Under the pieces are notes generated by a model. It worked only from the letters and a program-made list of their open reading frames with translations, made no database searches and was not told the origin of the DNA. The position numbers were made by a program, and so were the translations under genes. Below, piece by piece: positions 1 through 50,142 of a stretch of 50,142 nt of DNA. Source of the DNA: a virus. The stretch is taken from IMG/VR virus record IMGVR_UViG_3300035498_000744, positions 64,001-114,142 of that record, one strand, 5' to 3'. Every line of letters begins with the position of its first letter. Position 1 is the stretch's first letter.

Positions 1-113
1 CTCTAATTGCCTCTAAACTCTCTACCCCTACTCCACTAGTCTTTTTAAAAGGCGCTGTATGTGGCATCCTTATATACTGCGCGGTAGCGTGCTTCCGCAA
101 AGGTAAAGATTAT

Positions 114-281
114 ATGGTTCCAGCTTGCGTAATAGGATTTATAACTTTCGGTGCGGAGCACTGCATAGCTGATTTATGCTACTTTTTATCGGCTGGATTC
201 TTCTCTATTGATGTAGTTATTTTCTTGTTAGTAGTAACTCTTGGTAATGCGGTAGGGGCATTATTAGTTGACAGCTTGTAA
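114..281 (+). CDS. Short hydrophobic ORF with formate/nitrite-transporter (FNT)-like C-terminal motif (GAEHCIAD...LGNAVGALL); fragment or remnant
   Basis: Open frame 18..281 ending TAA at 279-281. Hydrophobic sequence resembles the FNT signature region by recall. An upstream in-frame stop at 15-17 limits it to under 90 aa. Confidence 0.25.
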   Translation: MVPACVIGFITFGAEHCIADLCYFLSAGFFSIDVVIFLLVVTLGNAVGALLVDSL

Positions 282-320
282 AAAATATATTATTATATTA
301 TAAGATAAAGGAGGATTAGA

Positions 321-671
321 ATGACTCTTTATGAGATGAATAAAGCTAGTTATGCTTCTTTGCCCGAGTTAAATGAAGATGGTATTTAGTATGGAACTAA
401 CCTTATAAAAGAATATATTAAAAATACTAATAACCGTTATTATATGATTTTGAATCATGATATTCATTATTATACTCTATATAACAAAGAGCGTGCTACT
501 TCAAAAGAACTTGCTCAAAATGTTGTAGAACTGATGAGTAAACTTGGTTCTATTAGAGCCATAGAACTATCTGAAAACGAACAAGCAATTGAGTTTTGGA
601 TTATTGATATTACCGGAGAATGTAATATGTATGCTTTCTTCCGTTATGATGGCGGGGTGATTACTCTATGA
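321..671 (+). CDS. Hypothetical protein (116 aa); contains the ORF-track 444..671 piece
   Basis: ATG 321 lies 5 nt after a strong RBS, AAGGAGGA at 309-316. One in-frame TAG at 387-389 is read through. The gene ends TGA and its stop overlaps the next start (ATGA). Confidence 0.5.
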
Positions 672-922
672 ACGACGTAATCCTTATAAGTTATAATCCA
701 TTTGCCAGAGAGAGTGAAATTTTCATTTGTAAGAATGGAAAATCTAGAAGCGTAGCTATTAGTTCAGATTTAGATGACTTAGCTAAAAAGGTTATTTCTC
801 TCGCTTATGAAAACGAGATTTTCAGCGTGAAATCCAAGGCTCCCTATGAGACTTCTTTTGAAATCAAGCAACTGATTAACGAGTATGATTCTTTAAAAAA
901 GATTACAGTAGAAGGTATTTAA
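668..922 (+). CDS. Hypothetical protein
   Basis: ORF-track frame, ATGA-coupled to the upstream gene, TAA stop, no in-frame TAG. Confidence 0.5.
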   Translation: MNDVILISYNPFARESEIFICKNGKSRSVAISSDLDDLAKKVISLAYENEIFSVKSKAPYETSFEIKQLINEYDSLKKITVEGI

Positions 923-924
923 CT

Positions 925-1176
925 ATGTATTATACTTTAAAAACCACCACAACTTATCGTGTGCCCACCGTTGAAGACGCCCTTAAACTAAGGAAGTATC
1001 TTGAAAAGAATGCAGTCGGAGAGCTTAATTCTTTTACATACACGACGAAAGAGATCAAGATTAAAGGAGAAGTTGTCGAAACTTATCAGCTTGTAAAAGT
1101 AAGTTTTAATATAGACAACGAGAAAGAGCCAGAAGGCATCCAAACTGTTCTTATGGAGGAGAAGGCCAATGATTAA
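925..1176 (+). CDS. Hypothetical protein
   Basis: ORF-track frame, TAA stop; overlaps the dUTPase start. Confidence 0.5.
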   Translation: MYYTLKTTTTYRVPTVEDALKLRKYLEKNAVGELNSFTYTTKEIKIKGEVVETYQLVKVSFNIDNEKEPEGIQTVLMEEKAND

Positions 1177-1732
1177 ATTTGAAAAAGTTCAAAGATTTGC
1201 GAATGTTGACCTTCCTCTCCCGACACGCGCTACCTCAAATTCCGCAGGGTATGACTTTGTAGTGGCAGAAGATATTGTAATTCCTCCGTATGACTTTATC
1301 AAGACTAAGATTCAAGATGCTCTTTTTGAGAAAGACCGTCCTAAAGATTACTATGCTTTCATTAATCCTCTTACTCTTGATGAAATGGCCTCTGTGACCA
1401 AAGACCTCGGCACTAAAGTTACTTTGGTATCGACTGGCATGAAATGTCATCTTGAACCCGGGCAGTATCTTGAACTTAGCGTGCGGAGCTCCACTCCTTT
1501 GAAGCATTGGCTTATCATGGCTAATGGGGTGGGTATAGTCGATGCGGACTACTACAACTCAAGCGCTAATGAGGGTGAAATCTTCTTTCAAATCATCAAC
1601 TTAGCTCCATTCGCTATTCAACTTAAGCGTGGAGATAGAATCGGTCAAGGTATTATTAAAAACTACTTGACTATTGATGATGACTCCGCGGAAGGGACTC
1701 GAGAAGGAGGTTTCGGAAGCACTGGAACATGA
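1169..1732 (+). CDS. dut: dUTP diphosphatase (dUTPase)
   Basis: Carries the conserved dUTPase motif 5 (REGGFGSTG) at the C-terminus and an AGYD-type motif 3, plus an N-terminal motif by recall. Standard-code ORF ending TGA. Confidence 0.75.
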   Translation: MIKFEKVQRFANVDLPLPTRATSNSAGYDFVVAEDIVIPPYDFIKTKIQDALFEKDRPKDYYAFINPLTLDEMASVTKDLGTKVTLVSTGMKCHLEPGQYLELSVRSSTPLKHWLIMANGVGIVDADYYNSSANEGEIFFQIINLAPFAIQLKRGDRIGQGIIKNYLTIDDDSAEGTREGGFGSTGT

Positions 1733-2205
1733 ATCTTTTAGCATTAGACCAAAGTAGCCATGTATCGGGATACGCGATTTTTAAAGACGGAAAGCTCGAT
1801 TCTTATGGCAAGTTTTCTGTGGATGATGAATCAGTAGACAAAAGATTGGTAAAAATCCGAAAATGGCTAGCTGACTTAATCTTAAATAACTAGATTGATG
1901 AAGTGGTATATGAAGATATTCAATAGCAGAGCAATGTAGCTAACAATGTAAAAACTTTTAAAGTGCTTGCGGAAGTCTATGGTACTATCTCCGAATACCT
2001 TGAAGAATAGGGAATTCCACATAGTTCCGTTCTAGCTTCATCATGGAAGTCAACTCTAGGAATCAAAGGCCGCACACGCCAAGAATAGAAAAAAAATGCC
2101 CAATAGTTCGTAATTGATAAGTATAGCGTCAAGGTGGTGCAAGATATAGCGGATGCAATTTGCATAGGAGAACATCATCTTTCTCATTCCCATGGGGCTT
2201 GGTAA
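1729..2205 (+). CDS. RuvC-like Holliday-junction resolvase (158 aa, 5 in-frame TAG)
   Basis: ATG at 1729 overlaps the dut stop. Hand translation MNLLALDQSSHVSGYAIF...YEDIQ*Q...DIADAICIGEHH matches the RuvC fold and acidic residues. It is coherent only if TAG at 5 positions is a sense codon, and it ends TAA at 2203-2205. Confidence 0.65.
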
Positions 2206-2786: not shown

Positions 2787-3059
2787 TTATTTAGCTTCAG
2801 GAGCTGCTAATTTCATATGGTCTTCCATTCTGTGCGTTTTATCATGAGCAATTTTTTCTTCTGGACTAGCTTCTTCCATTGCGGCAACAATAGAAGAGTA
2901 ATACATAGCCTCAGAAAGGTCTTTAATCATATCTACTACTTCGCCTAGCTCACTTGCGGAAACGTGCTCCAGATCATGCGTTTCCTCTTCTACAATTCCT
3001 AATAGGCAGTGCTGAATTTCTTTCATTCTGTGCATCATATTAAGCCACCCTCTCCGCAA
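2787..3059 (-). CDS. Hypothetical small acidic protein
   Basis: ORF-track frame, TAA stop. Confidence 0.45.
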   Translation of the reverse strand: MRRGWLNMMHRMKEIQHCLLGIVEEETHDLEHVSASELGEVVDMIKDLSEAMYYSSIVAAMEEASPEEKIAHDKTHRMEDHMKLAAPEAK

Positions 3060-3072
3060 TTAAGTTAGCATT

Positions 3073-3462
3073 CTAAATGCTAATAGCTTGAGAAGTAATA
3101 TTTCTTACGGTGATTTGAGAGCAGCAACCTTTCGGCACGTCAATAAAGATAGAAGCTGCTATGTTATTATATAGATTGACCGCACCTGGAGTAGAAATCA
3201 TTGTAGCTGAACCTACTGGCTCACCATCTAACGTGATGGCTAAAGTGATGGGGCCAGCGGTCCCCGTAGAAGGAACCGCCACATTGCCCCCAAAGACTAC
3301 TCGATATCTTGCCCTACTTTGACCGCTGGTTATACCACGAAGAGTAGTTATCCCACTCCCCTGACGATGCATTATGGAGCAATTACCATCGACTGGAGTC
3401 GCCGTAAATAATACATCTTGATTGCTACCAACTGTCTGAGCCGCAACAGCTGTAATCTCCAT
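3073..3462 (-). CDS. Hypothetical protein (129 aa)
   Basis: ATG preceded by AAGGAGG, ending TAA. Confidence 0.5.
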   Translation of the reverse strand: MEITAVAAQTVGSNQDVLFTATPVDGNCSIMHRQGSGITTLRGITSGQSRARYRVVFGGNVAVPSTGTAGPITLAITLDGEPVGSATMISTPGAVNLYNNIAASIFIDVPKGCCSQITVRNITSQAISI

Positions 3463-3479
3463 TATTCATTCCTCCTTAA

Positions 3480-4109
3480 TTAGCCGCAATTGCAACCATA
3501 ACCGCCGCTTAAACTTTCAACTGCGGCTACCGCGTAAGGGTAAGATGAATTTGGATTCATCACGGGGTACGCAGGAATTGGGCATGGTTTAAGCTGATTC
3601 ACAAGATACTGATTCTGCGCACACTGACTAAGCTAGAAATTAGCACCAAGAAGCTCGGTATTCTTCGCCTCGAGGCGATCCCGCAGTTCCTGCATAGTAT
3701 TAGCATTAATTAGGGCACGAGTCTATTCGCCCTCTTGATGAATCGCGTTAGTAATCGCGCAAGTGTTTTGTGCATTCTCGAATTTTACGCTATCGATATT
3801 GCGGTTAGTGTTACAGCAGCATGAATCCATGGCGTAACGATTCTCGGCTATAGCGCTATTTACACTGTTGATTCCCTGTGAGACCGAAGTAAATCCAGTA
3901 CAGAGGTCTCTCTGAAGGTTGCCAAAGTTGTTAAGCAAGGTTGTGTTGTTGCTGTAAAATCCGTCGCAGAGCCCTTGCTGGACTCCCCGCACACTGTTTT
4001 CTAACTGTTGAAAATTCATATCCTGGCATAGGTCAGCACGAGTTAAAGCACCCTGGGTGGCAGCATTATTAGCATTACCCCATCCGTTATTGCCATAGCC
4101 CATAAACAT
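3480..4109 (-). CDS. Cys-containing hypothetical protein (209 aa, 2 in-frame TAG)
   Basis: ORF-track 3723..4109 ends at TAG. Read-through gives a coherent 80-aa extension to TAA at 3480-3482. The next gene's RBS and ATG follow immediately. Confidence 0.5.
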
Positions 4110-4155
4110 GAATAAAAATAAAATAATTATCCCAATTTGTTACCCTAAGAGCTTT

Positions 4156-4347
4156 TTATCTCTCAGATCTATTACTTGGTTTTTGTAATAGTTCAGCATA
4201 TCTTTTCAACTCTTCATCGTTACTCTATAGAAGTTTATCGTCCCCTATAAGTAAAAGAGCCAATAGAATTATGAACCATATTTGAAAACTATTATCTTCT
4301 TGTTCTTTAGATTCTCCAGATCTAAAGATAAATTTTTCAATTTCCAT
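4156..4347 (-). CDS. Small single-TM protein (63 aa), 1 in-frame TAG
   Basis: RBS AAAAGGAGAG then ATG. Hydrophobic stretch WFIILLALLLIG. Ends TAA. Confidence 0.4.
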
Positions 4348-4519
4348 TATTACTCTCCTTTTCTTTAAAGTTGTCGCGGCCTCTTGGCAAGATTATATTC
4401 TCTTTCGAGTTTCACTTGCTATGCGTTGCGGCTGGAAGGAGTATTGCCCCCATCCTTCACCTCTGATTAGCATTTCAGCCTTCCAGATTTTTTCCGCGAT
4501 TTACCCATGGCAGATTTGT

Positions 4520-4609
4520 TTACCATGCGCCATTATTGGCGAATCCATCCTTGTTTTCACCGCTTGCAGCAGCAATATCAGACAAACTGTAACCTTGAGT
4601 ATTAAACAT
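4520..4609 (-). CDS. 29-aa peptide (MFNTQGYSLSDIAAASGENKDGFANNGAW)
   Basis: RBS CAAGGAGGAA then ATG, TAA stop. Shares an NNG(A)W motif with the N-terminus of the 3480..4109 protein. Confidence 0.2.
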   Translation of the reverse strand: MFNTQGYSLSDIAAASGENKDGFANNGAW

Positions 4610-4630
4610 ATAAGTTCCTCCTTGTTAATT

Positions 4631-4855
4631 TTAAAGACCCAACATTTGTTTGAAGCTGGCAAACTCTTTGTCAAAGTCTCCTCCCCTAGAAGCGACGAGA
4701 TTCCTAGCTATTTGTTCTATTTGGGTAGTATTTCCTTGCTTAACTAGATTCATTAAATTTGCCATCATAGGATTCCCTTGACTTGATTGTTCTAGCATAC
4801 TCATAACTAACTGCTAGGGGTTTTGCCCATTTTTAATAAGCTCCAATGGATTCAT
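4631..4855 (-). CDS. Hypothetical protein (74 aa), 1 in-frame TAG
   Basis: RBS TAAGGAGATG then ATG, TAA stop. Confidence 0.35.
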
Positions 4856-4871
4856 ATTCACATCTCCTTAT

Positions 4872-5273
4872 TTAGAATTTAATTTGCGGAGCCTCGTTTT
4901 GAGATTCTTCAATCTAGGTTTGAGGCACCGCCGCGAAAGATTGTTTAAGTTGATTAATAGCTCTTTCAAACTCTTCTCTTGTTATGAAGTTTCCCGTTGT
5001 CTCTATTGGCGCAAGTTTTAGCTCGTAAACATTTAATGTCGAAGTACCATCTAGATTAATTTGTTTCGTATATATCTTCTTATTAGCGAGATCTGGGAAA
5101 TAGAATACGGAACCATCAAAGTCTACGCTAGTAGCTCTTACCTCATCAATAGAAGAAACAGGATGGCCTTTAATCCCTATTTGCGGCTGCGCCTAAACCT
5201 AAGCTTGGTCTATGTAGGGCTATCTTCCATAGTAAGAGATAGGTTGCTACTGTGGGTAATATGAATAGTTCAT
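4872..5273 (-). CDS. Gln/Tyr/Pro-rich protein (133 aa), 5 in-frame TAG
   Basis: Codon-by-codon translation gives MNYSYYPQ*QPISYYGR*PYIDQA*V*AQPQ..., with TAG codons lying inside a CAA/CAG-rich glutamine tract. Ends TAA. Confidence 0.45.
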
Positions 5274-5382
5274 TGGCATTTAGTTTTTCTCCTCCTTCAC
5301 ATTTTATTGGGTCTTTCACTAATATATGAAAAACTGGGAAAGTTCATTAACCTACTTTGCCAAAAATTTTTGTAAATTCTCT

Positions 5383-5727
5383 TTAAGCCTAGCCTAGAGT
5401 TGCGGCGTAGCTCCAAAATGGTAATTTCATATCTTCATTAAGTTCTTTCTTAATAAGAATATCATAATTGCATAGGATAGAGTGAAGCGTAGTATAATCT
5501 TTATCTTCTATAATCATTTTCATCATATCAAGGATTTCTTTTTCATATGCTCCTCCTTCACGACTTGCAAGATCTTCTAATGAGGCAAGATAATATTTAT
5601 TCCATTCTTCTCTTGTATAACCTGGACTTAGTCCTGTAGTTTCATAAAAGAATGTTTCAAGTTCTTTAAGTCCTTCTTCTGGAATCATTTCAATTCCTCC
5701 TTCTATTGATATTCGCGGAATTGGCAT
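5383..5727 (-). CDS. Hypothetical acidic protein
   Basis: ORF-track 5389..5727 ends at TAG. Two further codons are read before TAA. Confidence 0.5.
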
Positions 5728-5778
5728 TTTTGCTTAATAGATTTTGCCCAAAAAATTGGGAACCAGCGGGTAAAAAAT

Positions 5779-5812
5779 AAAAGGAACCTAAATATTAGGT
5801 TCCTTTATTCTT
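5779..5812. terminator. Hairpin terminator (AAGGAACCTAA...TTAGGTTCCTT)
   Basis: Perfect 10-bp stem with T/A runs on both sides. Confidence 0.5.
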
Positions 5813-6181
5813 GTTTACTTCTGCCTCAATTAATTGAGTTAAATAAACATTTAAATCTCCAGTAGTCTCGGTAATATATTCCTTTGCGTCATCAGATAAA
5901 ATAGCCATCACCGCAGTTAAAGTCTTATTGAAAGCTTCTTTTTGCGCTTCTTCATCGAAGGTATTAGAATTTTTAAGACTATTTACATAAGTCTAATTTG
6001 TAGCTATTACACAATCTGAAATAGTTTGATAGAGCATATCAGTATACTTCTGGGCAGTTTCATTATTGGTTGAATTTTTAATTTCATCTCGTTTAGCGGA
6101 GAGATAATCTACAAGATACTTGGTTAAAATACCAAGCAAAGGGATTATACATAGCTAGAAAATTTGAGTTAATAGATCCAT
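5795..6181 (-). CDS. Membrane protein (128 aa, 2 in-frame TAG)
   Basis: RBS AAGGAGGAATATTT then ATG. Stop TAA sits inside the hairpin. Confidence 0.45.
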
Positions 6182-7502: not shown

Positions 7503-7674
7503 TATCTATAAATTTTAATTAATTTGGATTTGTAGAAAGTTCATAGAATAAAATTTGCTTTATTTTAAAATTGCAAAATTGTGTTAATATATACCATTAG
7601 ATAATTATTGTCTAACTTCATATATTTGCCGTATAAAGAATATATGGCTATAAATCACTTACTGATAATAAATA

Positions 7675-7745
7675 AAAAACCCATCTTTATAAAGCTTTTT
7701 AATGAATAATAAAGTTTTATAAAGATGGGTTTTTATTTATTGTCA
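7675..7745. terminator. Large bidirectional terminator hairpin in the AT-rich spacer
   Basis: CCCATCTTTATAAAG ... CTTTATAAAGATGGG, a 15-bp stem, flanked by A and T runs. Confidence 0.6.
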
Positions 7746-8145
7746 GAAGGCACGATACAACATATATAGTTGGAAAATGGCTTATTTTATAGGAGATTTT
7801 AAAATTTCTTTGTAAATTTGTCTATATCAAACGCTCTGAAAAGAAACAAAAAAATTACTCAACTAAATCTATGTGGCAATCTATTATGACGCTGCCGCCA
7901 AGCGAAAATTATTAATTAATTATTGCTCATAAATAGATATATAGAGAAGCAGAGCTTAAAAACTCATCTCTAGATAATGTTGTGTATACTCTCGGCAGTT
8001 GCTTCAACACTTTTGTTTTATTCATATTGATTAATTTTATATTATCTATGCCAACTGTTTTAAATCACGTTCAAGATTTATAACCTTTTAAAGAGCTTTT
8101 TTTAATTTTATCTAAAATCAAACTTATTCCCTTGTATTAATACAT

Positions 8146-8460
8146 TTAACCTATAGCGATATAATGATATATGTAATTTTTTGTATTAGCTTCTGTGTAA
8201 TAACCAGAGTCCGACTAGCTGTATGCCTTAAATCCAGTATCTACAATTTCAATAATTACAAGCTTTGAACTATCATAATGGGTGTAAGAAGGGGAGTTTG
8301 GTAGCGCGATTCCTCCTGCCGTTATTTGGTATTTAGTATTATCCCACCCAAACCCCATTTTTGCACTTGCTACAATTACTGCTTTAGGTGTAAAACCCAC
8401 ATTTATATACTAACTTGTCTTACCATCTCCTGTATAACTCCCTACAATAATTTGCATTGA
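8146..8460 (-). CDS. Promoterless, start-less alternative tail-fibre C-terminal cassette (variant B, about 104 aa). In frame with IR-R and silent in this orientation
   Basis: Minus-strand frame runs from IR-R (…LKTVLGISD) through SMQIIVGSYTGDGKTSQYINVGFTPKAV... to TAA at 8146-8148. There is no RBS or start, and the fibre-gene terminator sits directly upstream. Confidence 0.5.
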
Positions 8461-8565: not shown

Positions 8566-8580
8566 TTATTAAAGCACGAA

Positions 8581-9370: not shown

Positions 9371-9386
9371 GATTAATTAATCTCCT

Positions 9387-11432: not shown

Positions 11433-11446
11433 GGTTAAGCACCTCC

Positions 11447-40806: not shown

Positions 40807-40820
40807 GTCTAATCCCTCCT

Positions 40821-42263
40821 TTATGACATACTTTCCGAATTAGCTAGAGTTTTGTCAGACTTTTCCGAATCTTCTTTTTCCGGACGTCCGCTTTCTTTGG
40901 TCTCTATTGCCTTGCTACTCATGACATTACTCGTGACCGGCGGAATCATTATCTGAGACAAATTAAGAACTTCATTCTCAAAGGTCATCGTGGCAAGCAG
41001 TTCTGACTAAGAATGACCTAAAGCTATTTGCGGAAGCATCTTTGAATAGCCCATCTATGCGTGCTCTTTGTATAACTTAGCAAGCTCTTTATGGTTAAAT
41101 TGCGTAGTCTCTAGAATCTATACTCTAAAAGAATAATGATTCTTTTTATCAAACTTTGTAATAATTCTATTCAAGAGTCCTTTAAATAACTACGGGATAT
41201 CTCTTATAGAAGCTTCATCAACTAGAATAGAATTAGTTGTAGCTAAGTTACCATCAGCATTAAATAAGTTGCGAGAAATGCCCGCATTATTATAAACTGT
41301 TCGCTCTACTTTTTCAAGATCGTCTGTTGAGGTAGAAGAATTTGCATCTTTTGTATCAATTTTCTCAATATCTGCAAAAGTAGTCAATACATCTACTCCA
41401 ACTGCTCGCTTAAGCATTGTGACTGCGTTATTGTGGATATCTCTAGCTTCGTCAACGTCAAAAACTAAATCTCCATTTTTATCTAATGGGAGCTTCTATA
41501 CAATAATTTTAAGTAACTGTTGCATGGTCTTTTGGCGGTCTAGTTCTTGAGCCTGGTCTAAGTCAATAATAGAAGGAATAACCCCAACAAGAGGAGGAAA
41601 CTCGCTATCATTTAAGCTTAACTTAAAAGAGGTCTTAACGTCAAGCGGATACCAGCAAGTTTTATCTCCTGGATAATCACCCCTTAATTTTCCCTCTTTA
41701 TAAGTCACATAAGCTTGCTAAACATCTTTAGGGAAAGTTTTCAGGATATAAATCTTTTGCTATGGTTGCGGGAAGTACACATCGAAGAATTGTAAATTAA
41801 GCTCTACAACAGGATCAACTCCGCTATAATAGCGGCTGCGGCAGTAGTTAGCCGGCAGTTTCTAAACTCCAAATTTGTCGCCAAAATCCACAATAATACC
41901 ATACGAAGCCCCTTCCTTGACGATGTCTAAAGCAAGGTTCCCGCAAATCCTCTTTACATCAGAATTATCAAGATAGAGCAATACCTTGGAAAAGTCATTT
42001 AATAACTTCTTCTCTTTTGTTGCATCAATCGTATACGGCGTGACATACCAATCATACCTATAGAGATATGCGAGGTATCGACAAAGCTCATAGTAAATGC
42101 CATTGCTTTCATAAAAATAGTTAGATATTTCTCTAAGAGTCTTATAGTCATGCTTATAAATAGCTCGAAGAACAAAACCTTTGTCCCCATAGCTTGAGTT
42201 TATTTTTTTATAACTGCCAAGATTCACAGAAATATCATCTACAGTCCGCAGTCCAACTCGCAT
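40821..42263 (-). CDS. Portal protein (about 480 aa; about 8 in-frame TAG)
   Basis: ORF-track pieces 41862..42263, 41496..41708 and 41190..41417 share a frame and join through TAG. Hand translation continues to TAA just before the scaffold RBS. SPP1 gp6-like features by recall. Confidence 0.6.
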
Positions 42264-42350: not shown

Positions 42351-42711
42351 TTAGTAACCAGCCTTACTCATTATGTAATCATAATTCATGATATTTTCAT
42401 CTAAATAGGGTATTTCAACAAGCGTAATACCTTTCAGCGCGCAAAATCTACGCTTTTGATTATCGTTATACTTTTGCTGGTATAATCCTCTATTTCCCCC
42501 AAATTTACTTACAGCTTGATAATGCTGCTTACCTTGATACTCAATTAAAAAATCAAGATTTCCATCGTCATCAAATACAGCAAAATCAAAGCTATCGAAG
42601 AGGGCGACCACTAGGCGCTTTTAATCCAGGGAATTCATATTCCTCTTTAAAGTTTATGCCATTACTTTCCAGGATTTCATGAATTTTAATCTCGCCACGA
42701 GAAGCTCTCAT
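42351..42711 (-). pseudogene. Vsr/DUF559-like PD-(D/E)xK endonuclease, split by a frameshift between its N- and C-terminal parts
   Basis: N-terminal part from ATG 42711 with RBS GGGGGTGG: MRASRGEIKIHEILESNGINFKEEYEF... C-terminal part is ORF-track 42351..42611: FDFAVFDDDGNLDFLIEYQGKQHY...LVEIPY. The two parts are 100 nt apart, so they lie in different frames. Confidence 0.4.
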
Positions 42712-42773
42712 TTGTAACCACCCCCTTCTTTATTATATCTTAAAAAAGTCTAGGTTTAATTATCTAGTTTTGT

Positions 42774-45704
42774 CATCCGAGGAACATAAAATCTGAGAAG
42801 TTATGCTTGCGGCGCTTGCGCTTATTGTCTTCATTTTCTCGGATATAGTAGATTGCATAAAGCAAAGAAGAAAATTTATCATGCCCAATATTCCTATTAG
42901 CAGGTTTTAATTTGATATTAATCCCCTCATTCTCCTCGCGGAGGTTGAGCATTTCTTCTTTGAGTATGTCTGTTAGCTGATAGGGAATAAGATACTCTGC
43001 TCTCTATTCAGGGGTCATAGATTGCCCCATTTTCTTACCCATTAGTTTTGCTTTTGCTACCCGCTCAGATATCAAAAACTTAATTTTCCCAGACTCAATC
43101 TAACTTTGAAGCGTTGAATAAGCAGTAGAATCAATGGGAGCATTAGCTTTAATGACATAAATAGCGTCATCTTCTGTATCATTTGTACGAAATCGCTTAT
43201 ACTCCTAATCTGCATCTGTATAAGTTCCGCCTATCACCCCAAATGGAGGATAAACATCTCCTTCTTCTGTTATTTGACGTTTAACCATATAGTCCATAAG
43301 ACCAATCCCTACAATACCTTCCACATAGCTCGCTATTTCTATGTGCGTTCTTTTATGAACTGCTTATAGTTTCCCATAAGTTGAGACTATCTCTTTCTCT
43401 CAATGAGAGATCTTCCATTTCGACCACCAATCGCTTGCGGCCTACGTCTTTCGACTAGTCGTTGAACCTTTTCTTTCATCAATAGAAAAGAACTTGGCTG
43501 CGGATTAGCTTGCTTATTAAAGTTTAGCTTTCCCGCAATTAAAAAGATTTGCATCATGCAGTCGCCTACATGAGGGGCTATTTTATTAACCCGTTTCCAT
43601 CTATGACTAAACGTCTTGCCTTATAACGATAATATAACTTTTTAAGCTTGATAGCTTGTTCTTCAAAATGTAGTTCATTTTCCGCAAAAACATAAAGATT
43701 AACTAAAGTCTTTATAGAACTACCATCTAATTGCGGAGTTACCTTGATTATTGTTGCCACTGACTAACAATCTTTACGTCCTACGTCTACACCTATTACA
43801 TAATAAGCTTGGCTTGAAGACCGACCTGAATATTCATATTCGGGTTGATTAAGTATTCTGTTCCGGTCAAATTTCTCGCCATTAAAGAATGCTCCATCTA
43901 CCGTTCCAGTCCACTTGCTTGACATTTATCTTTAAAACTATTCGCAACATAGTTTCCCTTTCGGCTCCACATTTCTGTAGAGATGAGACTATATCATACA
44001 TTATTATTCTACGTATTTCTTAATAATAATGTTTTTGTGCTTCGATTTAAGGGAATTTCACCCACCCCATTAGCTTGGGCCCTACTCCTATTGAACTTAC
44101 GTCCCAAAGGGATAGTCGTTGAACCTTCTTGTTATTTTAACAAGCTTGGCTGCCGATTGTCCAATCCTAAATAATTTTACCATCCATGTGCTATTACGCA
44201 CACTGCTACGCCAAAAAGCTGCGGTTATTTAGGCTCTAAGGAGTTTCCGGCAATTCACAAAATTTATAGAGTACACAAGTTTTATACTCTCTTTCAAAGC
44301 CAGCTTCATTAAACGTAGGATCTCGCTTTAAGTCATTTAAAAAATTCTTTCCCAGCATCCCCATCAAGACTGGAACTCTATAAGTTCCGCCCATAATAAA
44401 GGCTTTACCAGGTTCTGTAACCATCTACACTAGTGTTTGAATCAACTTCTAGTAGCTAAAAGTATTCTTATAGCCAGCCGTTGTAATGTAAAGCTAAGAC
44501 TGGTTTAATACCTCGTCTTCCTAGACTGTCCCATCTAAACACTAGCGTGAAACATTCATCATCAAGAGAAAAGAAACTCTTGGACTATCTCATCAACTAC
44601 TGCCGAAAATAGTTGCTGCGCGCTTCGGACAGCGACAAACTCTGCTCTACTGGGTTACACTCATCACCCTTAGTCTCTACACCTTCCTTTTTTAAGGCTT
44701 GGCACGGGATTCTCTATATTCCCCGTTAGCTTGAATCGCTAGATTCAAACACCCTTTTGTCACAGGTTCACGCAGTTATTCACTTGTAACTCACGCTACA
44801 AGGCCCCAATGTTGTTCAGGGATTAAAACTTCTTGCAAGATCTATTGGTCTACGCCAACGCATTCCTCTATGAGCCCAGCATGTTTACGCCGTCCTCTCG
44901 AGCTTTCACGCGCCGCTATATTCTCAAAATCCGACCCATTCTTAAATACATATCGACAATGGTCTTTGCCTTCTGCGGTTCCTGACCCTCGTGTCCAATT
45001 GATCTCTCTTTTAAATGCGGGAATCTTTTCACAAATATCCTTAACCTTCTCTTGCAGTATCTATGCAGCTTGCTCCTTGCCTCCAGCCGTCGAGAATACG
45101 TGCGCTCCTGGATAGAGTATACAACGTATCACCTAGACTAATACGGAAAGGAAACTTTTTGAGTATGCCATTTGCTTTCTATTTAGTTCGCTACGCTAAA
45201 TACGTTCTCTTATGAACTGCTGTATGTCACCATACAGATAAGACTATATCTTCACCCTCGGCTTTACGTTAGGGGCCTACTTTTTCGGATACCAATCGCT
45301 TATATCCTACTCCCTCTCAGGATAGTCGTTGAACCTTTTCTTCCATCAATAGAGAAAGAACTTGGCTGCTGATTGTCTTGGTCAAGATGTCCCAGCAATT
45401 AAATAGGTCCTTCATTAATGTTTCCATCAATGCACGCTATACTCTAACGTGGATACACGGCATATACATACTTATATCTAGCTGCCACGCGCAGGAAAAC
45501 ACGCTAATAAAAGAAGAGATGGAAGGTTAATTCCTTTTCTGGGTCTCCGCCTGTCTACATAAAATCTACAAATAAATCTGGATACTCTCGCCAGAAAGCA
45601 ATATATTGCCTCATTATAGGTTTAACTGCTTCTAGCCTTTCTTTTGAGATTCCTACTTTTCTGGTAGCAATAGAAGAGGAATCTATTAATGATTCTAAGC
45701 TCAT
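42774..45704 (-). CDS. terL: Terminase large subunit, interrupted by about 4 self-splicing-intron-like elements. Exons roughly 45704-45470, 45170-44781, 44466-44194, 43928-43578, 43360-42774
   Basis: Exon 1 starts at an ATG overlapping the upstream stop (ATGA) after RBS AAGAGGAGG. Exon segments align in order with T4 gp17-type ATPase and nuclease motifs by recall: YQR, PRQS then KS, NGS, EEC, GVDVG, GIGLMDY. Exon boundaries are approximate. TGA at 42774-42776. Confidence 0.55.
43361..43577 (-). ncRNA. Group I intron-like element in terL
   Basis: On the minus strand, in 5' to 3' order: P-like AATTGCGGGAAAG, Q-like AATCCGCAGCCAAG, R-like GTTCAACGACTAG, S-like GAGATAGTCTC. These are consensus elements recalled from memory. 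Begins at the in-frame TAA of exon 4. Confidence 0.5.
43929..44193 (-). ncRNA. Group I intron-like element in terL
   Basis: Q-like AATCGGCAGCCAAG, R-like GTTCAACGACTATCC, S-like GATATAGTCTC. Confidence 0.45.
44467..44780 (-). ncRNA. Structured intervening sequence in terL (intron of uncertain class)
   Basis: Exon 2 ends TGA at 44781 and coding resumes near 44466. Contains a perfect hairpin (TTGAATCGCTAGATTCAA), a GCTAACGGGGAA / AATCCCGTG element repeated near 46950-46990, and an S-like GAGATAGTCC. Confidence 0.3.
45171..45470 (-). ncRNA. Group I intron-like element splitting the terL Walker-A region
   Basis: P-like AATTGCTGGGACA, Q-like AATCAGCAGCCAAG, R-like GTTCAACGACTATCC, S-like AAGATATAGTCT. 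Confidence 0.5.
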
Positions 45705-46126
45705 GATTCATCCTCCTCTTTTTCTTGGTCTACAAATTCATTAAACTCAACAAAGTCCGCATCTTTTATTGGTGAAGAGCTATAGTTAAATAGCCTCTCT
45801 TCTGCGGCATTATTAACATCTTCCTCGGAAATTTTAGCGGCGTCCGCAATAGCTTCTTTTTCTTGCTCTATTGCTTTAAGACTATTTTCAATAAGATTAT
45901 TAAGACCAACTTCTTCGGTTACTAAATCATGAGTATAATTTTGCATATCTTGAATAACTCTATCTACTTTATCTTGTGGTTTATCTACATAATATCTTGG
46001 AATAAAACCATCTCGTTCGCACAAGGCTACTATTTCTCCAATGGAATCTATATAATCACCTTGTTCTTCCTTGATCTAAGCAGCAGTGCATATTACTCCA
46101 TTGTTTCCAATGGCATTGACTATCTT
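45701..46126 (-). CDS. Acidic protein directly upstream of terL (about 141 aa open frame with no canonical start); terS candidate or a 3' exon
   Basis: ORF-track 45701..46024 extends upstream through one TAG to TAA at 46127. Its TGA overlaps the terL ATG. The first ATG/GTG/TTG is an internal TTG at 46024. Confidence 0.35.
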
Positions 46127-46258
46127 TTACTTTCACACTAAGCGAAAGGAAACCATTTCAGTTTTCAGAGGCTTCGTTTCCTAAAACCTCACTACGTACC
46201 AATAGTAGCCTTACTTCCCTGCCCAGAAGGCCTAGGGAATAGTCGATACAGATTCAAA

Positions 46259-46900
46259 TTAAATATATTTAACTATATAGCCGTGATAAGGTTTGCCTTG
46301 AAGAATATATTTTTTTAGAGTATCGGTACTTCCATTCGGGCTTAATCCAACGAAAACTTTAAAATCACGTTGTGTTTCAAATTCCCGAATAAAATTTCCA
46401 TTCAAATCATAAATAGCTACTCCTTTTGCAGTAGGAGCTTTTCCCCCTTGCTTAGCTTCGCTCATTTTCTTTTTAGATTCTTCATTATGGTGTCGTCCCC
46501 ACCAAGGATGCTCCTCTTTGCAAAAATGTTTGCCATAAAAATAATTCTTTTCTCCCTTAGCAGCTTCCGAAAGCTTTCTTTTTCGCTCTGCTTGAGCTTC
46601 CTCGCTCATACCAGCACAAGGATTACTGTTGAATCCACCTTCGGCTATATTATAAAAATTCTCGTTAGCAACAGCATCATAAGCTTGAATCCATTTTCTT
46701 TCAGCAATGTTCATGCTTTCATAATCTTGGCATATCTCAAGTATCTCTTTCTTAAAATTCTCTTTACCATATTTGGAAACAGCTTTCTTAAGCAAGCTTC
46801 CACTTCCAATATAGCTATCATCAATTTCTCCATGATGCTGGCCTATATATTGCTTGCCATCAATGAGGTTAGTAGTTAAATAAATGTAATACTGCTTCAT
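46259..46900 (-). CDS. GIY-YIG homing endonuclease (I-TevI/Seg-like)
   Basis: N-terminus KQYYIYLTTNLIDGKQYIGQH is a GIY-YIG motif. RBS AAAGGAG then ATG 46900 (the track's TTG 46909 is less likely). Basic C-terminal DNA-binding region. Standard-code ORF. Confidence 0.7.
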   Translation of the reverse strand: MKQYYIYLTTNLIDGKQYIGQHHGEIDDSYIGSGSLLKKAVSKYGKENFKKEILEICQDYESMNIAERKWIQAYDAVANENFYNIAEGGFNSNPCAGMSEEAQAERKRKLSEAAKGEKNYFYGKHFCKEEHPWWGRHHNEESKKKMSEAKQGGKAPTAKGVAIYDLNGNFIREFETQRDFKVFVGLSPNGSTDTLKKYILQGKPYHGYIVKYI

Positions 46901-46990
46901 ACTACACAAACTCCTTTAAATATATTTAATAAGTTTTCCACGGGATTACCATGCCACTAAACGTGGTTTAGGCTTCCCCGTTAGCTCGTT

Positions 46991-47716
46991 TTAAGAAACG
47001 AACCCCAGTGGTAACTGGTAAAGTTTTTCACGGTCCACTATTTCGAACCTGCCGCTTTTCATCAACGTATCATACGCTTTAGACATTTTTTGGAAGCTAT
47101 CAATATCCCCAGCATCGAGCAACTAATTTGCTTTAAGACTTGTTTTACAAATCATAATAAGTGTGTCTTTATGCCCAGCAGTCTATATATCATAAGACTG
47201 CATAAAATCTCGATACAGTTGTTCTAACTTTACCCACTCTTCTGGGCGATAGCCTCTCCCCCATTTAAGCCTAAGCATGAGTCTATCTTCTTCAGTTAAC
47301 TGTTCTGAAAACTCATCTTCTACCCATTCTGGGTCTTCATATTCGGGAACTTCTGCCGCCTCTACTTCAATTATAGGTTTTTGCGGCGTTCGGTCTATAG
47401 AGAGCCTTTCCTAGACTTCTTCATCTCTCAATCCACTAGCTTTCATTGCTTCAATGGTTCTTTGTCGAGACTCTTCCTCGATTTTTTCCGAATCGGCCCA
47501 TGTATATCTATTCCATTGCCGCAGTTTCATCTTAGAAAGATATCTGCCTAAAATAGTTACTCCACTAACCTTTGTAGGGTCTTTTCCATATTTTTCCAGA
47601 AGGGAATCCCATTCCTCTTTGATATAGGGGACATCAACCTCTTCCAAAATCCACTTATAGGTTTCTGGATCCCAGTTATCTACGTGCATAGTTATACATT
47701 TCTTGCAAGTAGTCAT
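46991..47716 (-). CDS. Hypothetical packaging-region protein (241 aa; terminase small-subunit candidate)
   Basis: ORF-track 47411..47716 continues through one TAG to TAA at 46991-46993. A mid-point stop I first called turned out to be an indexing error. Confidence 0.4.
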
Positions 47717-47811
47717 TACGCCATCAGGAGGATATCTATCTAACCTTTTAGATTTATAGAACTAATTTTCCTCCATGGTTTTACCGCATTTCTAACAATA
47801 ATGCTATGCCA

Positions 47812-48873
47812 TTACGCACCTCTTTTCTTATTTCGGCAATGCTTACATATACTATACAAGCCATCCTTGCTCATACCATTTCTAGAAAAGAATTGCGCAT
47901 GGGCGGGTTTTAATTCTCCGCACTTGGTACATCGTTTCATTGGATAGTTATTAGTCTTATATTCCCATGTTAAGAAGTCCTCAGTAGCGGTTTCCGCAAT
48001 TATCTTAGGAATTTTATTCCGCCATAAGGCCGACAAGTATTCTACAGTATAAGTGGTACCAAATTCATCTTTCAAAAGGTCTCGAATCTCACTATTTTGC
48101 TTTTTATCTATTTTTAGCTCTACTATACGTTGATAAATAGGATATTCCTTTAGCGCTTTATCACAAGTTTCCTCAAACGCCTAAAGCAAGTACCACATAT
48201 CTCCGCTGAATTGATCATAGCTGTCTTCTTTAAGTTTAGAATAGTTACATAAGATTGCTGATACGACTCTAGAATCCATAAGAGAAATACCACTTACCAT
48301 GACCTTAGGCCCTTCGGCAGTCTTTTCTAAATGAGAAGTATCATCAAGAGGTAAAAGATTCTATCCCCCTCTCGTTATTTTACACAAAGATATCGGTCGT
48401 TGATAAGCTTGCTTTATAAGATATTGGTCTTTTCGCATTTCGATTAAAGCTTTCTTTATAGTATAAGCCTACCTTGTTCCATTCGCACGTTTTAAAGCTT
48501 TTTCCCAGTCATTAATTGCTTCCCGCAATTGCCGCAAAGAAGGTATTGTGTCTAAATCATGCTAGGTAATGGAAATCTTTGGCTAAAGTAACGCATTTTT
48601 ATTTTCTACTATTAGGCTATAAATGCCATCTTCGCCATTTTCCATCTACGCTGCAAGCCCTTCAAAGGAATACTCTCTCTTATTAACTGTAGCCAATCTA
48701 TTTTCGGTTAAAATCTTCTTTTCTTTCTTCTCTTGTTTTTCCATACAAAGAATTAAATAATCTGCTAATGTCTCTAAATAAGCTGGAGTAATATCAGGGG
48801 TTTCCGCAATTATTTTTTCGACTAAGGCTTTACGTTCTTCTGGAGACTCGATAGTATAATCTAATTTGGTCAC
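47812..48873 (-). CDS. Protein with C-terminal HNH/zinc-ribbon-like motif (about 353 aa), first gene of the minus-strand operon
   Basis: RBS AAAGGAG then a GTG start. ORF-track 48646..48873 and 47812..48075 share a frame, joined by a TAG-only hand translation. C-terminus CTKCGELKPAHAQFFSRN...CKHCRNKK. Confidence 0.45.
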
Positions 48874-48890
48874 TTCTTCATCTCCTTTAC

Positions 48891-48926
48891 TCTATATATA
48901 ATAACAAAAAAAACTTAGATTGTCAA
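48891..48926 (-). promoter_or_regulatory. Sigma-A-like promoter for the minus-strand operon (TTGACA, 17 nt, TATATA)
   Basis: Read on the minus strand: TTGACAATCTAAGTTTTTTTTGTTATATA, about 25 nt upstream of the RBS. Confidence 0.45.
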
Positions 48927-48980
48927 TATCATTCCCTTCTATTTATATTTGATAAAAAACTCTATAAATAAATAATTAAA

Positions 48981-49010
48981 TTTGACCAATAAAAAATAAA
49001 ATGCTATAAT
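48981..49010 (+). promoter_or_regulatory. Sigma-A-like promoter (TTGACC, 17 nt, TATAAT) for the plus-strand right-arm genes
   Basis: TTGACCAATAAAAAATAAAATGCTATAAT about 30 nt upstream of RBS AAAGAGGG and ATG 49043. Confidence 0.5.
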
Positions 49011-49042
49011 ATTTTTATCAAGAGAGAAAAGAGGGCAAAAGA

Positions 49043-49357
49043 ATGTCTTTTTTTAGTAAGTCTCCTTGCCTTTTACCTGAAGGAGCTAAATATTTTTTTA
49101 ATATACTCGTGATAAACATTGGAATAAATTATGATAATTTAAGCGAGTTTTTTAATAATGGAAGTTGTAGTGCATGGTATTTAGACGCAATTAATAATCC
49201 TCGGCCATATGTAATTCATTTTTTCGCAAGTTCAACGCCTTACGATTGGGAATTAATAGGATACCCTCATTGTGTTATAGAAATAACCCCAGAGCAGAAA
49301 ATTTCTTTTTATGAGATGCTAGATTTTGGGACTAGCGATCCATGGAGGATAGATTAA
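49043..49357 (+). CDS. Hypothetical protein (104 aa)
   Basis: Complete standard-code ORF, TAA stop, overlaps the folD start. Confidence 0.5.
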   Translation: MSFFSKSPCLLPEGAKYFFNILVINIGINYDNLSEFFNNGSCSAWYLDAINNPRPYVIHFFASSTPYDWELIGYPHCVIEITPEQKISFYEMLDFGTSDPWRID

Positions 49358-50127
49358 TGGAACTTTTAAATATTAAAGAATATGTAAAACAAGAGAAAGA
49401 GAAACTGCGGGCGGCCGCTCCAAAGCGCATTAAACTGGGAATCATTGATGCCACAGAGCAAGGTGATTCCGCAAATCATTTATACATAAAAAATAAATGC
49501 AAAGATTTCGCCGAGATAGGTTGGGATTGCGAGATTTATCCAGTTACTGAAAATTCAGTGAAGCCAGCGATTAATCGAGCTATTGTTGGAGACTGCACTT
49601 CTATTATAGTCCAGTTGCCTACGAGAAAAGGAATAGATTTCCGGCCAGATATGATTCCTTCTTCTCTTGATTGTGATGGTGTGACAATGGGGTCTTTAGT
49701 AATTCCAGCTACTCCGAAGGGAATTGTTGATTATTTGAGGGCTTGCGGATTTCCATTTTCTAGAAAAACGGCAGTTGTTCTAGGTAGAAGTGATATTGTA
49801 GGCAAGCCTTTGGCAAAGCAACTGGCTGATCTTGATATGACAGTATCTTTATGCCATTCAAAGACAAGGTTAGAAGATAGAGTTTACTTGCTGAAAAATG
49901 CGGATTTAGTAATTTGCGCTATTGGCAAGGCTAAAAACGTGAAGCGAAGCGAATGCCCGCAAGCAGTTGTAGTAGATGTAGGAATTAATAGGGATGAGAA
50001 CGGCAAGCTTTGTGGCGATTTTGAAGAGGATGGAGGTCTTTCTACTCCTGTTCCAGGAGGGGTTGGTTTGCTAACTCGCTTAGCGTTAATGAAAAATTGC
50101 TATGTTTTGGGGAAAACATTAGAATAA
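49357..50127 (+). CDS. folD: Bifunctional methylene-THF dehydrogenase / methenyl-THF cyclohydrolase (FolD)
   Basis: FolD signatures: GRSxIVGKPL, CHSKT, VVDVGINR, GDF..., VPGGVGLLTRLALMKN. Start at the second ATG (MELLNIK...). No in-frame TAG in 257 codons. Confidence 0.8.
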   Translation: MELLNIKEYVKQEKEKLRAAAPKRIKLGIIDATEQGDSANHLYIKNKCKDFAEIGWDCEIYPVTENSVKPAINRAIVGDCTSIIVQLPTRKGIDFRPDMIPSSLDCDGVTMGSLVIPATPKGIVDYLRACGFPFSRKTAVVLGRSDIVGKPLAKQLADLDMTVSLCHSKTRLEDRVYLLKNADLVICAIGKAKNVKRSECPQAVVVDVGINRDENGKLCGDFEEDGGLSTPVPGGVGLLTRLALMKNCYVLGKTLE

Positions 50128-50142
50128 GGAGAATGGAGCTAA

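What the first reader, a model, noticed from the sequence alone, without database searches (positions are those of the whole stretch)
1..50142. No suppressor tRNA in the window, and TAG use is uneven between genes
No tRNA-like sequence was spotted in the non-coding stretches (7503-8145, 46127-46258, 46901-46990, 48874-49042). A recoded phage needs a TAG-decoding tRNA, encoded elsewhere in the phage or supplied by a host. The left-arm ORFs 668..922, 925..1176 and dut, and the right-arm folD plus 49043..49357, contain no TAG in about 720 codons. Structural genes use TAG at 3–6%. Only 321..671 and the resolvase break this pattern. That uneven split is like the early/late partition described for recoded phages.
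Basis: inference. Interest (0 to 1): 0.55.

Follow-up and report, generated by a model that had tools for sequence, protein, structure and literature searches.

The report
Recoded phage fragment; suppressor tRNA lies outside
The window is about one third of a roughly 145-kb gut phage that reads the TAG stop codon as glutamine; it has no TAG-reading tRNA because close relatives keep that tRNA in a cluster tens of kilobases beyond the window's end, and the uneven TAG use fits a pattern already described for such phages.

Summary
ARAGORN and Rfam find no tRNA in the window. TAG is clearly a sense codon: the longest ORF grows from 414 to 2901 aa, and TAG positions align with Gln in homologues. TAG use is uneven (246 TAG in 14,962 codons; chi2 p=7e-6; 10 TAG-free genes against 3 expected).

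Two details are wrong. Structural genes use TAG at 0.3–3.3%, not 3–6%. The ORFs at 4–6% read through group I introns in the terminase gene.

The missing tRNA comes from where the window is cut. Identical short contigs extend past both ends. Relatives (portal 70–74% identical) are 143–149 kb. Walking along them found an array of about 30 tRNAs that includes one Gln-like tRNA(CUA). If gene order is shared, the array starts about 23 kb, and the tRNA(CUA) lies about 41 kb, beyond the window's right end.

In the best-covered relative, TAG makes up 0.12% of codons in the early block, 0.37% in replication genes and 1.86% in structural and packaging genes. Major capsid and tube-like genes and homing endonucleases avoid TAG.

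This is a new member of the known code-15 phages related to phAss-1. Interest is low to moderate.

The parts
321..1732 (+). Left-arm genes at the tail end of the replication and nucleotide-metabolism unit: 321..671 (1 TAG), 668..922, 925..1176 and dUTPase 1169..1732 (all 0 TAG). A sigma70-like promoter lies at 268-296.
   Evidence: (phrog_135 dUTPase, 4.8e-34)
1729..2205 (+). RuvC-like Holliday-junction resolvase; TAG-rich (5 TAG in 158 codons, TAG/Gln 0.45)
   Evidence: (Pfam RuvC); the homologue in the relative has 9 TAG in 159 codons
2273..2746 (+). Last gene of the rightward unit (1 TAG), followed by a bidirectional terminator-like hairpin at 2752-2784
2787..6181 (-). Block of lysis and unknown genes, including the holin 5795..6181 (2 TAG); TAG/Gln 0.22
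   Evidence: (phrog_13712 holin, 3.5e-32)
7658..7752 (.). Perfect long hairpin in the 7503-8145 gap between convergent genes; probably a bidirectional terminator, not a tRNA
   Evidence: dG -49.7 kcal/mol, z -11.4; no tRNA match at E<=10
8146..42263 (-). Late structural module: tail fibres, tape-measure protein 22140..30821 (2893 aa, 77 TAG), candidate capsid 37780..38832 (3 TAG), portal 40821..42263 (8 TAG). TAG is 0-3.3% per gene.
42351..42611 (-). HNH homing-endonuclease fragment, 0 TAG
42773..45704 (-). Large terminase gene in five exons (about 587 codons, 14 TAG), split by four intervening sequences: 43363-43597, 43965-44293, about 44563-44835 and 45220-45456
   Evidence: tblastn against the intron-less homologue in L010; three group I introns at 86-98 bits; fourth at 24 bits, E=0.05
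45701..47812 (-). Zinc-ribbon gene (phrog_3314; 7 TAG) split by a 957-nt insert (46088-47044). The insert holds a TAG-free GIY-YIG/NUMOD homing endonuclease (46259..46900).
   Evidence: no Rfam match
47812..48873 (-). Sigma-factor-like gene (PHROG annotation only; 6 TAG). It probably starts at GTG 48873.
   Evidence: phrog_5767, 2.6e-31; conserved N-terminal extension
48874..49042 (.). Divergent control region with two 11/12 sigma70-like promoters, each with a TG extended -10: 48926->48898 on the minus strand and 48982->49010 on the plus strand. No tRNA.
49043..50127 (+). First two genes of the rightward unit: 49043..49357 and folD 49342..50127. Both have 0 TAG but only 6 Gln codons in all.
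   Evidence: (Pfam THF_DHG_CYH_C, 2.3e-37)

Best explanation
The window is about 34% of a roughly 143-149-kb tailed phage that uses genetic code 15 (TAG = Gln). The phage is a distant relative of phAss-1, probably virulent, and probably infects Oscillospiraceae-like Clostridia. The window covers the whole late module on the minus strand (sigma-like gene, packaging, head, tail, lysis), the last six genes of the long rightward early/middle unit (left arm) and its first two genes (right arm).

The suppressor tRNA is absent because, in this lineage, it sits in an array of about 30 tRNAs downstream of a TAG-free early block. If gene order is shared, the array starts about 23 kb, and the tRNA(CUA) lies about 41 kb, beyond the window's right end.

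Inferred mechanism:
1. Early genes carry almost no TAG, either as sense or as stop, so host ribosomes can read them while release factor 1 still terminates at TAG.
2. The tRNA array is then transcribed. It includes two tRNA-Gln genes and a Gln-like tRNA(CUA) with a U1-U72 mismatch, G73 and an encoded CCA end.
3. Only after that can TAG-bearing genes be translated in full: the sigma-like factor, terminase, portal, tail proteins, holin and resolvase.

Two more factors shape TAG density on top of timing. The most abundant virion proteins (capsid, scaffold-like, tube-like) keep TAG low, which fits less efficient decoding. Mobile homing-endonuclease genes have none.

Shown: the recoding, TAG = Gln by alignment, no tRNA in the window, the location of the tRNA in relatives, and the TAG gradient. 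Inferred: that this exact genome carries the tRNA, the timing of expression, and the causal role of TAG.
For: - Recoding: (414 -> 2901 aa).
- TAG = Gln: window TAG positions align to Gln 40% and to TAG 19% in close relatives, against 48% and 17% for the window's own CAA/CAG positions. In distant, mostly unrecoded relatives TAG positions align to Gln 41%.
- No tRNA in the window: with a positive control.
- The window is a fragment: contigs identical to it extend 3.6 kb to the right and 0.7 kb to the left. Relatives with portal 70-74% identical are 96-149 kb.
- In published phAss-1, the 50 kb holding the structural module has no tRNA. Its 36 tRNAs, three of them CUA, lie at 62 kb and 102-114 kb (PMC10607447).
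- Walking along IMGVR_UViG_3300045988_084596 and _091188: no tRNA around the portal, dUTPase, NrdD, PolIII-alpha or the early genes. The array starts at about 65.3 kb, where synteny with phAss-1 predicted it.
- L207 is 98.6-99.4% identical to _091188 over 10 kb. It continues to a tRNA(CUA) at 18519-18594, between tRNA-Ser(uga) and tRNA-Leu(caa). The same tRNA is seen in 7 contigs. It scores 59.8 bits on the Rfam tRNA model and resembles phAss-1 Sup #2.
- TAG gradient in the relative: early 0.12% (32 of 37 genes TAG-free), replication 0.37%, structural and packaging 1.86%, resolvase pair 4.3%, lysis 1.72%.
- In the window: arms without the resolvase have 2 TAG in 992 codons against 244 in 13,970 elsewhere (p=1.3e-5; per Gln p=8e-4). 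Homing endonucleases 0 of 15 Gln codons (p=8e-4). Abundant virion candidates TAG/Gln 0.18 against 0.41 (p=0.0035).
- Capsid and tube-like homologues are TAG-free in every recoded relative.
Against: - The tRNA(CUA) was seen only in relatives whose portal is 72-74% identical, not in this genome.
- PMC10607447 reports two TAG-recoded genomes of the wider group without a tRNA(CUA).
- Evidence for timing inside the window is thin. The five TAG-free arm ORFs hold only 15 Gln codons and were picked after the fact.
- folD and its neighbour are TAG-rich in the relative, although they sit at the start of the rightward unit behind a consensus promoter.
- Within the late block, heterogeneity of TAG/Gln is only marginal (p=0.09).
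- There are no expression data.
- The function labels 'sigma-like', 'capsid' and 'tube-like' rest on PHROG matches or position only.
- The terminase label is weak by profile (Pfam 0.0067, PHROG 7e-4, no PDB match). It rests mainly on position and on homology to the phAss-1 terminase region.
Confidence: 0.8

Rival explanations
1. This phage encodes no suppressor tRNA at all. It relies on a host tRNA(CUA), on a co-infecting phage, or on weakened host termination to read TAG.
For: No tRNA in 50 kb or in 4.3 kb of identical flanking contigs. PMC10607447 reports two TAG-recoded members of the wider group without tRNA-Sup-CTA, and notes that some recoded phages lack one.
Against: Every array-bearing contig of the nearest clade that reaches the position has a tRNA(CUA) (7 of 7). 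The window uses TAG more heavily than those relatives, even in its capsid gene, so it needs efficient decoding. In relatives and in phAss-1 the structural third of the genome is also free of tRNAs, so absence here carries no information.
Confidence: 0.1
2. The uneven TAG use is not regulatory. It reflects Gln content, small-sample noise and neutral drift between CAG/CAA and TAG since recoding, plus recent acquisition of some genes from standard-code sources.
For: Individually, the TAG-free genes are only weakly significant (p=0.01-0.25). 17191..18027 has no Gln codon at all. TAG/Gln within the late block is only marginally heterogeneous (p=0.09). folD is TAG-free here but has 4 TAG in the relative. 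Recoding depth varies across the clade from none to heavy, as gradual drift would produce. The TAG-free homing endonucleases are mobile.
Against: In the relative, 32 of 37 early genes over 4,814 codons are TAG-free, with TAG/Gln 0.05 against 0.44 in the late block. Capsid and tube-like genes are TAG-free in five independent recoded relatives. The resolvase is TAG-rich in both genomes. Drift alone does not predict patterns conserved by function.
Confidence: 0.12
3. The host itself reads TAG as Gln, so the phage needs no switch and the distribution of TAG has no meaning.
For: None from the tools.
Against: Early genes avoid TAG almost completely, as sense and as stop (stops in the relative's early block: 27 TAA, 7 TGA, 2 TAG). 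That is the signature of genes that must work under both codes. Relatives carry their own tRNA(CUA). Relatives occur as stand-alone contigs of about 148 kb, not as integrated prophages. No code-15 bacterium is known (own knowledge), and hosts with the standard code have been shown for several recoded phages (PMC10607447).
Confidence: 0.03

Closest known systems
phAss-1 (OQ749652.1) and the phAss-1-related monophyletic group of 90-150-kb gut Caudoviricetes; NCBI 'Caudoviricetes code 15 clade' (Babkin et al. 2023, PMC10607447)
   Same: TAG -> Gln recoding is concentrated in virion genes. Genome size class is the same. A large tRNA array with tRNA-Sup(CUA) lies outside the structural module. No dedicated aminoacyl-tRNA synthetase was seen. 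Portal (37%), terminase (38-44%), PolIII-alpha (38%) and NrdD (41%) are homologous. The suppressor tRNA of the window's clade resembles phAss-1 Sup #2, sharing the anticodon arm GGTCTCTAAAACC and the T arm. The predicted host is among the Clostridia (Oscillospiraceae).
   Different: Only 36-44% amino-acid identity in hallmark genes, and no nucleotide-level match, so it is not a Phassvirus. The nearest clade has one tRNA(CUA), not two or three, and none next to NrdD. dUTPase is TAG-free here but recoded in phAss-1. Here the terminase gene holds four intervening sequences. The relatives' array also holds a tmRNA.
Stop-codon-recoded phages in general and the 'recoding regulates lytic genes' model (Borges et al. 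2022, Nat Microbiol 7:918, as cited in PMC10607447 and PMC10879173; Peters et al. 2022, PMC9523058; Ivanova et al. 2014)
   Same: Early genes are compatible with the standard code. Recoded stop codons are enriched in structural and lysis genes. The suppressor tRNA is phage-encoded. The holin carries TAG.
   Different: Nothing essential. Added detail here: replication genes are intermediate (0.37%), the most abundant virion proteins are TAG-poor, a sigma-like gene behind a consensus promoter is TAG-rich, and recoding depth is graded among close relatives.
Group I introns with homing endonucleases in essential genes of large phages of Bacillota (for example the Twort/K-like and SPO1-like phages; own knowledge)
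   Same: Self-splicing group I introns (Rfam RF00028, 86-98 bits) interrupt a conserved late gene. GIY-YIG and HNH endonuclease ORFs lie nearby.
   Different: Four intervening sequences in one terminase gene, plus a fifth insert in the adjacent gene. The host genome is code 15, while the endonuclease ORFs are TAG-free.

Membership tests
Code-15 (TAG->Gln) recoded phage | In-frame TAG fragments conserved genes under the standard code, and reading TAG as sense restores full-length ORFs | tested here: met
   (414 -> 2901 aa; coding total 27.6 -> 60.3 kb); full-length portal, tape-measure protein and terminase
Code-15 (TAG->Gln) recoded phage | TAG positions align with Gln in homologues | tested here: met
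   Gln is the top aligned residue (40-41%), with the same profile as the window's own CAA/CAG codons
Code-15 (TAG->Gln) recoded phage | Phage-encoded suppressor tRNA with anticodon CUA | tested here: inconclusive
   Absent from the window. Present in 7 contigs of the nearest clade, outside the region homologous to the window. The rest of this genome was not available.
Code-15 (TAG->Gln) recoded phage | Recoded codon depleted in early genes and enriched in structural and lysis genes | tested here: met
   Relative: 0.12% against 1.86%. Window: arms 0.2% against 1.75%, from few codons.
Code-15 (TAG->Gln) recoded phage | Gln actually inserted at UAG during infection | not testable with these tools
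   Needs proteomics, as in PMC9523058
phAss-1-related group (Babkin 2023) | Homologous hallmark proteins and overall module synteny | tested here: met
   Portal 37%; terminase, PolIII-alpha, NrdD and early-gene anchors are collinear between the relative and phAss-1
phAss-1-related group (Babkin 2023) | Placement inside the monophyletic group by whole-proteome or marker phylogeny | not tested
   No tree was built. The nearest cultured-phage hits are the same ones the paper lists (Enterococcus EF1).
Genus Phassvirus | High nucleotide identity to phAss-1 (members are 80-86% identical) | tested here: not met
   No megablast match to any GenBank phage; protein identity is only 36-44%
Group I intron (Rfam RF00028) | Covariance-model score above gathering, and precise interruption of a conserved ORF | tested here: met
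   Three introns at 86-98 bits, at gaps in the terminase alignment. The fourth (24 bits) and the GIY-YIG insert (no match) are inconclusive.

The most novel reading that the evidence does not exclude
TAG recoding may gate the late transcription programme, not just late translation. The first gene of the late strand is a sigma-factor-like protein behind a near-consensus host-type promoter. It carries 6 TAG codons here, and 11 of 19 Gln codons are TAG in the relative. Its mRNA could therefore be made early but yield full-length protein only once the phage tRNA(CUA) has accumulated. That would couple a genetic-code switch to a transcriptional switch. The clade also offers a graded series for studying how a code change spreads through a genome: unrecoded, lightly recoded, heavily recoded, with capsid genes recoded last.
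Probability: 0.2. Interest if true: 0.6.

Novelty: new member of a known kind. Interest (0 to 1): 0.25.

Why it matters
Practical points:
- A missing suppressor tRNA in a partial contig should not be read as dependence on the host. In this lineage the tRNA lies more than 40 kb from the recoded structural genes.
- TAG counts per gene are inflated if group I introns are read as coding sequence.

Biological points:
- The clade gives a clean example of three levels of TAG use: early about 0, replication low, late high.
- There is an extra dip in the most abundant virion proteins, which suggests suppression carries a cost.
- Recoding depth is graded among relatives that share 60-75% identical portals.

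None of this changes the accepted picture of code-15 phages.

Tried and rejected
- Megablast of both halves of the window against GenBank phages: no match.
- folD as a probe in IMG/VR: no relative found.
- Exact-protein look-ups for dUTPase and folD: only contigs of 2-5.6 kb, with no tRNA. The window's own long contig could not be reached.
- phAss-1 NrdD as a probe: it retrieved only phAss-1-like contigs.
- Idea that the suppressor pair sits next to NrdD as in phAss-1: rejected for this clade. NrdD lies 2-4 kb upstream of dUTPase, and there is no tRNA within 10 kb in 32 loci.
- Walking from the replication side and the first two steps from the early side: no tRNA.
- All 8 viral, 1 metagenome and 1 genome scans are used.
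- Release factor or GlnRS genes: none seen in the window or between the tRNAs of L207 (by inspection only).
- Theta or HDV-like ribozyme next to the suppressor tRNA: no Rfam match in L207. The family may not be in Rfam.
- PDB sequence search with the spliced terminase: no hit.
- Rfam on the GIY-YIG insert: no intron match.
- Borges et al. 2022 could not be read and is cited second-hand.


Full report
**1. The observation**

ARAGORN finds no tRNA or tmRNA in the 50,142 bases. Rfam gives no tRNA match at gathering score or at E<=1 over the whole window. Permissive scans of the two largest gaps, 7400-8250 and 45900-47200, also give none. blastn with suppressor tRNAs of relatives finds only chance words of 9-15 nt. 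As a positive control, ARAGORN recovers all 36 tRNAs of phage phAss-1, including its three CUA tRNAs. The negative result is therefore reliable.

TAG is a sense codon. With TAG read through, the longest ORF rises from 414 to 2901 aa and ORFs of at least 100 aa cover 60.3 kb instead of 27.6 kb. Reading TGA or TAA as sense produces no long ORFs.

TAG means Gln. At window TAG positions, close relatives have Gln 40% and TAG 19% of the time. At the window's own CAA/CAG positions the figures are 48% and 17%. In distant, mostly unrecoded relatives, Gln is again the top residue at 41%.

**2. Gene map**

Sources.

- Plus strand 321-2746: three small ORFs, dUTPase, a RuvC-like resolvase and one more ORF. 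A terminator-like hairpin at 2752-2784 ends this unit.
- Minus strand 2787-6181: unknown genes and a holin.
- 6381-7502 (+): a fibre-like gene.
- 8146-42263 (-): tail, tape-measure protein (2893 aa), head and portal.
- 42773-45704 (-): terminase.
- 45701-47812 (-): a zinc-ribbon gene.
- 47812-48873 (-): a sigma-factor-like gene (PHROG label only).
- 48874-49042: a control region with two divergent 11/12 sigma70-type promoters.
- 49043-50127 (+): a small ORF and folD.

The 7503-8145 gap holds a perfect long hairpin (dG -49.7 kcal/mol, z -11.4). It is probably a bidirectional terminator.

**3. Introns and their effect on TAG counts**

Rfam finds three group I introns above gathering score. A tblastn of the intron-less terminase from relative L010 shows that the window's terminase is in five exons. 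The fourth gap coincides with a weak group I match (24 bits, E=0.05).

The next gene upstream is split by 957 nt that carry a GIY-YIG/NUMOD homing endonuclease.

The ORFs with 4-6% TAG in a naive code-15 map (43270..43557, 44194..44562) read through these introns.

**4. TAG statistics on 43 curated genes**

Sources.

- Overall: 246 TAG in 14,962 codons (1.64%). TAG supplies 37% of Gln codons.
- Heterogeneity: chi2 94.1, df 42, p=7e-6.
- TAG-free genes: 10 observed, 3.0 expected (p about 1.5e-4).
They hold only 15 Gln codons, so per Gln p=0.0016.

| Class | TAG/Gln |
|---|---|
| Tail | 0.44 |
| Packaging | 0.42 |
| Head | 0.29 |
| Lysis | 0.22 |
| Left arm | 0.23 (5 of 7 TAG are in the resolvase) |
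| Right arm | 0 of 6 |
| Homing endonucleases | 0 of 15 |

- Structural genes range from 0.27% to 3.3%, not 3-6%.
- Candidate abundant virion proteins have TAG/Gln 0.18 against 0.41 for other late genes (p=0.0035).
- Within the late block, heterogeneity of TAG/Gln is marginal (p=0.09).

**5. The window is a fragment**

Short public contigs identical to the window run 3.6 kb past its right end and 0.7 kb past its left end. Proteins of the window have relatives in long contigs:

- Portal, 70-73% identical, on IMG/VR contigs of 96-146 kb.
- Portal, 74% identical, on stand-alone contigs of about 148 kb binned into Oscillospiraceae and Eubacterium MAGs.

The nearest published phage is phAss-1: 135,976 bp, portal 37% identical, filed by NCBI under 'Caudoviricetes code 15 clade'. 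Its paper reports TAG -> Gln, 36 tRNAs and three tRNA-Sup-CTA (PMC10607447). In the GenBank record the first 50 kb, which hold the structural module, have no tRNA. The suppressors lie at 62.4-62.6 kb and 105.7 kb.

**6. Locating the suppressor in the nearest clade**

I walked along contig IMGVR_UViG_3300045988_084596 (146,360 bp) and its close relatives, using proteins at the ends of fetched loci as probes.

- No tRNA lies within 10 kb of the portal, dUTPase, NrdD or PolIII-alpha, or in the first 23 kb of the early region.
- Synteny anchors with phAss-1 predicted the array at about 62-74 kb.
- The array starts at about 65.3 kb, with 18-24 tRNAs up to the end of the locus.
- A metagenome scan with an ORF from the array's end gave contigs that are 98.6-99.4% identical to contig _091188 over 10 kb.
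- These contigs extend the array through tRNA-Gln(uug), tRNA-Gln(cug), Leu, Met and Ser(uga) to a tRNA with anticodon CUA, followed by Leu(caa) and Cys. The CUA tRNA is seen in 7 contigs.
- Rfam scores this tRNA at 59.8 bits.
- It has an unpaired U1-U72, G73 and an encoded CCA end, and it resembles phAss-1 Sup #2.

In collinear coordinates, the array would begin about 23 kb, and the tRNA(CUA) would lie about 41 kb, to the right of window position 50142.

**7. The early/late split**

In the pieces of contig _084596 that were fetched:

| Module | Size | TAG % of codons | TAG/Gln |
|---|---|---|---|
| Early block | 37 genes, 4,814 codons, 32 TAG-free | 0.12 | 0.05 |
| Replication and nucleotide metabolism | | 0.37 | 0.10 |
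| Structural and packaging | | 1.86 | 0.44 |
| Resolvase pair | | 4.3 | |
| Lysis block | | 1.72 | |

Early genes also almost never end in TAG: their stops are 27 TAA, 7 TGA and 2 TAG. They can therefore be read under either code.

Three observations complicate a simple timing story:

- folD and its upstream ORF have 4 and 6 TAG in the relative.
- Capsid and tube-like homologues are TAG-free in all five recoded relatives examined.
- Recoding depth differs among relatives, from none (L033) to heavy (L010 and the window).

**8. Interpretation**

The best reading is an ordinary code-15 phage, with the window cut so that the tRNA array falls outside it. TAG density follows expression timing, as proposed by Borges et al. 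2022 (cited second-hand) and supported by proteomics for crAss-like phages (PMC9523058). Expression level and gene mobility modulate it.

That this particular genome carries the tRNA(CUA) is inferred, with probability of about 0.85-0.9. The causal role of TAG in timing is also inferred.

**9. Novelty**

Recoding, suppressor tRNAs in phage tRNA arrays, and TAG enrichment in lytic genes are all published, including for this wider group. The window adds a divergent member. Its side features are the intron-rich terminase gene and the TAG-rich sigma-like gene behind a consensus promoter.

Noticed in passing
window 42773-45704 (minus strand): The large terminase gene is split into five exons by four intervening sequences. 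Three are clear group I introns (86-98 bits). The fourth (about 44563-44835) scores only 24 bits but sits exactly at a gap in the protein alignment.
   Followed up: partly
window 46088-47044 (minus strand): A 957-nt insert splits the zinc-ribbon gene upstream of the terminase and carries a TAG-free GIY-YIG/NUMOD homing endonuclease (46259..46900). It behaves like an intron with an endonuclease ORF, but no RNA family matches it.
   Followed up: partly
window 42351-42611: A truncated HNH homing-endonuclease ORF lies just downstream of the terminase. It has no TAG and is probably a remnant of a mobile element.
   Followed up: no
window 7658-7752 and 2752-2784: Long perfect hairpins flanked by A and T runs sit at both convergence points of transcription. 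The first has dG -49.7 kcal/mol and z -11.4. They are likely bidirectional terminators.
   Followed up: partly
window 48874-49042: Two divergent, near-consensus sigma70-type promoters with TG extended -10 elements. One faces the TAG-rich sigma-like gene and the other faces the TAG-free ORF and folD.
   Followed up: partly
L207 7791-8106 (also L196, L212, L214, L215): The relatives' tRNA array contains a tmRNA gene (Rfam 113 bits; tag peptide DNDYFENYLAA). That is notable in a phage that reassigns a stop codon.
   Followed up: no
L207 4257-4314: A twister-P1 ribozyme-like match (51.7 bits, below the gathering score of 67.2; E=3.8e-9) ends 5 nt before tRNA-Ser(gcu). It may be a tRNA-processing ribozyme.
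   Followed up: no
L010, L012, L015, L022, L033 against window 33082-48744: Recoding depth is graded among relatives whose portals are 60-73% identical: none in L033, light in L012 and L022, medium in L015, heavy in L010 and the window. Capsid and tube-like genes are TAG-free in all relatives but carry 3 and 2 TAG in the window.
   Followed up: partly
L207 12599-17066: Four or five paralogous fibre-like ORFs with TAG codons sit inside the tRNA array of relatives, between tRNA-Met and tRNA-Ser, next to an AAA-ATPase-like ORF.
   Followed up: no
L001 3745-3873 and 4139-4357 (same phage, right of the window): Two small early-region ORFs called under the standard code end at TAG, one of them with a TAA/TGA three codons later. 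This may be genuine use of TAG as a stop in early genes.
   Followed up: partly
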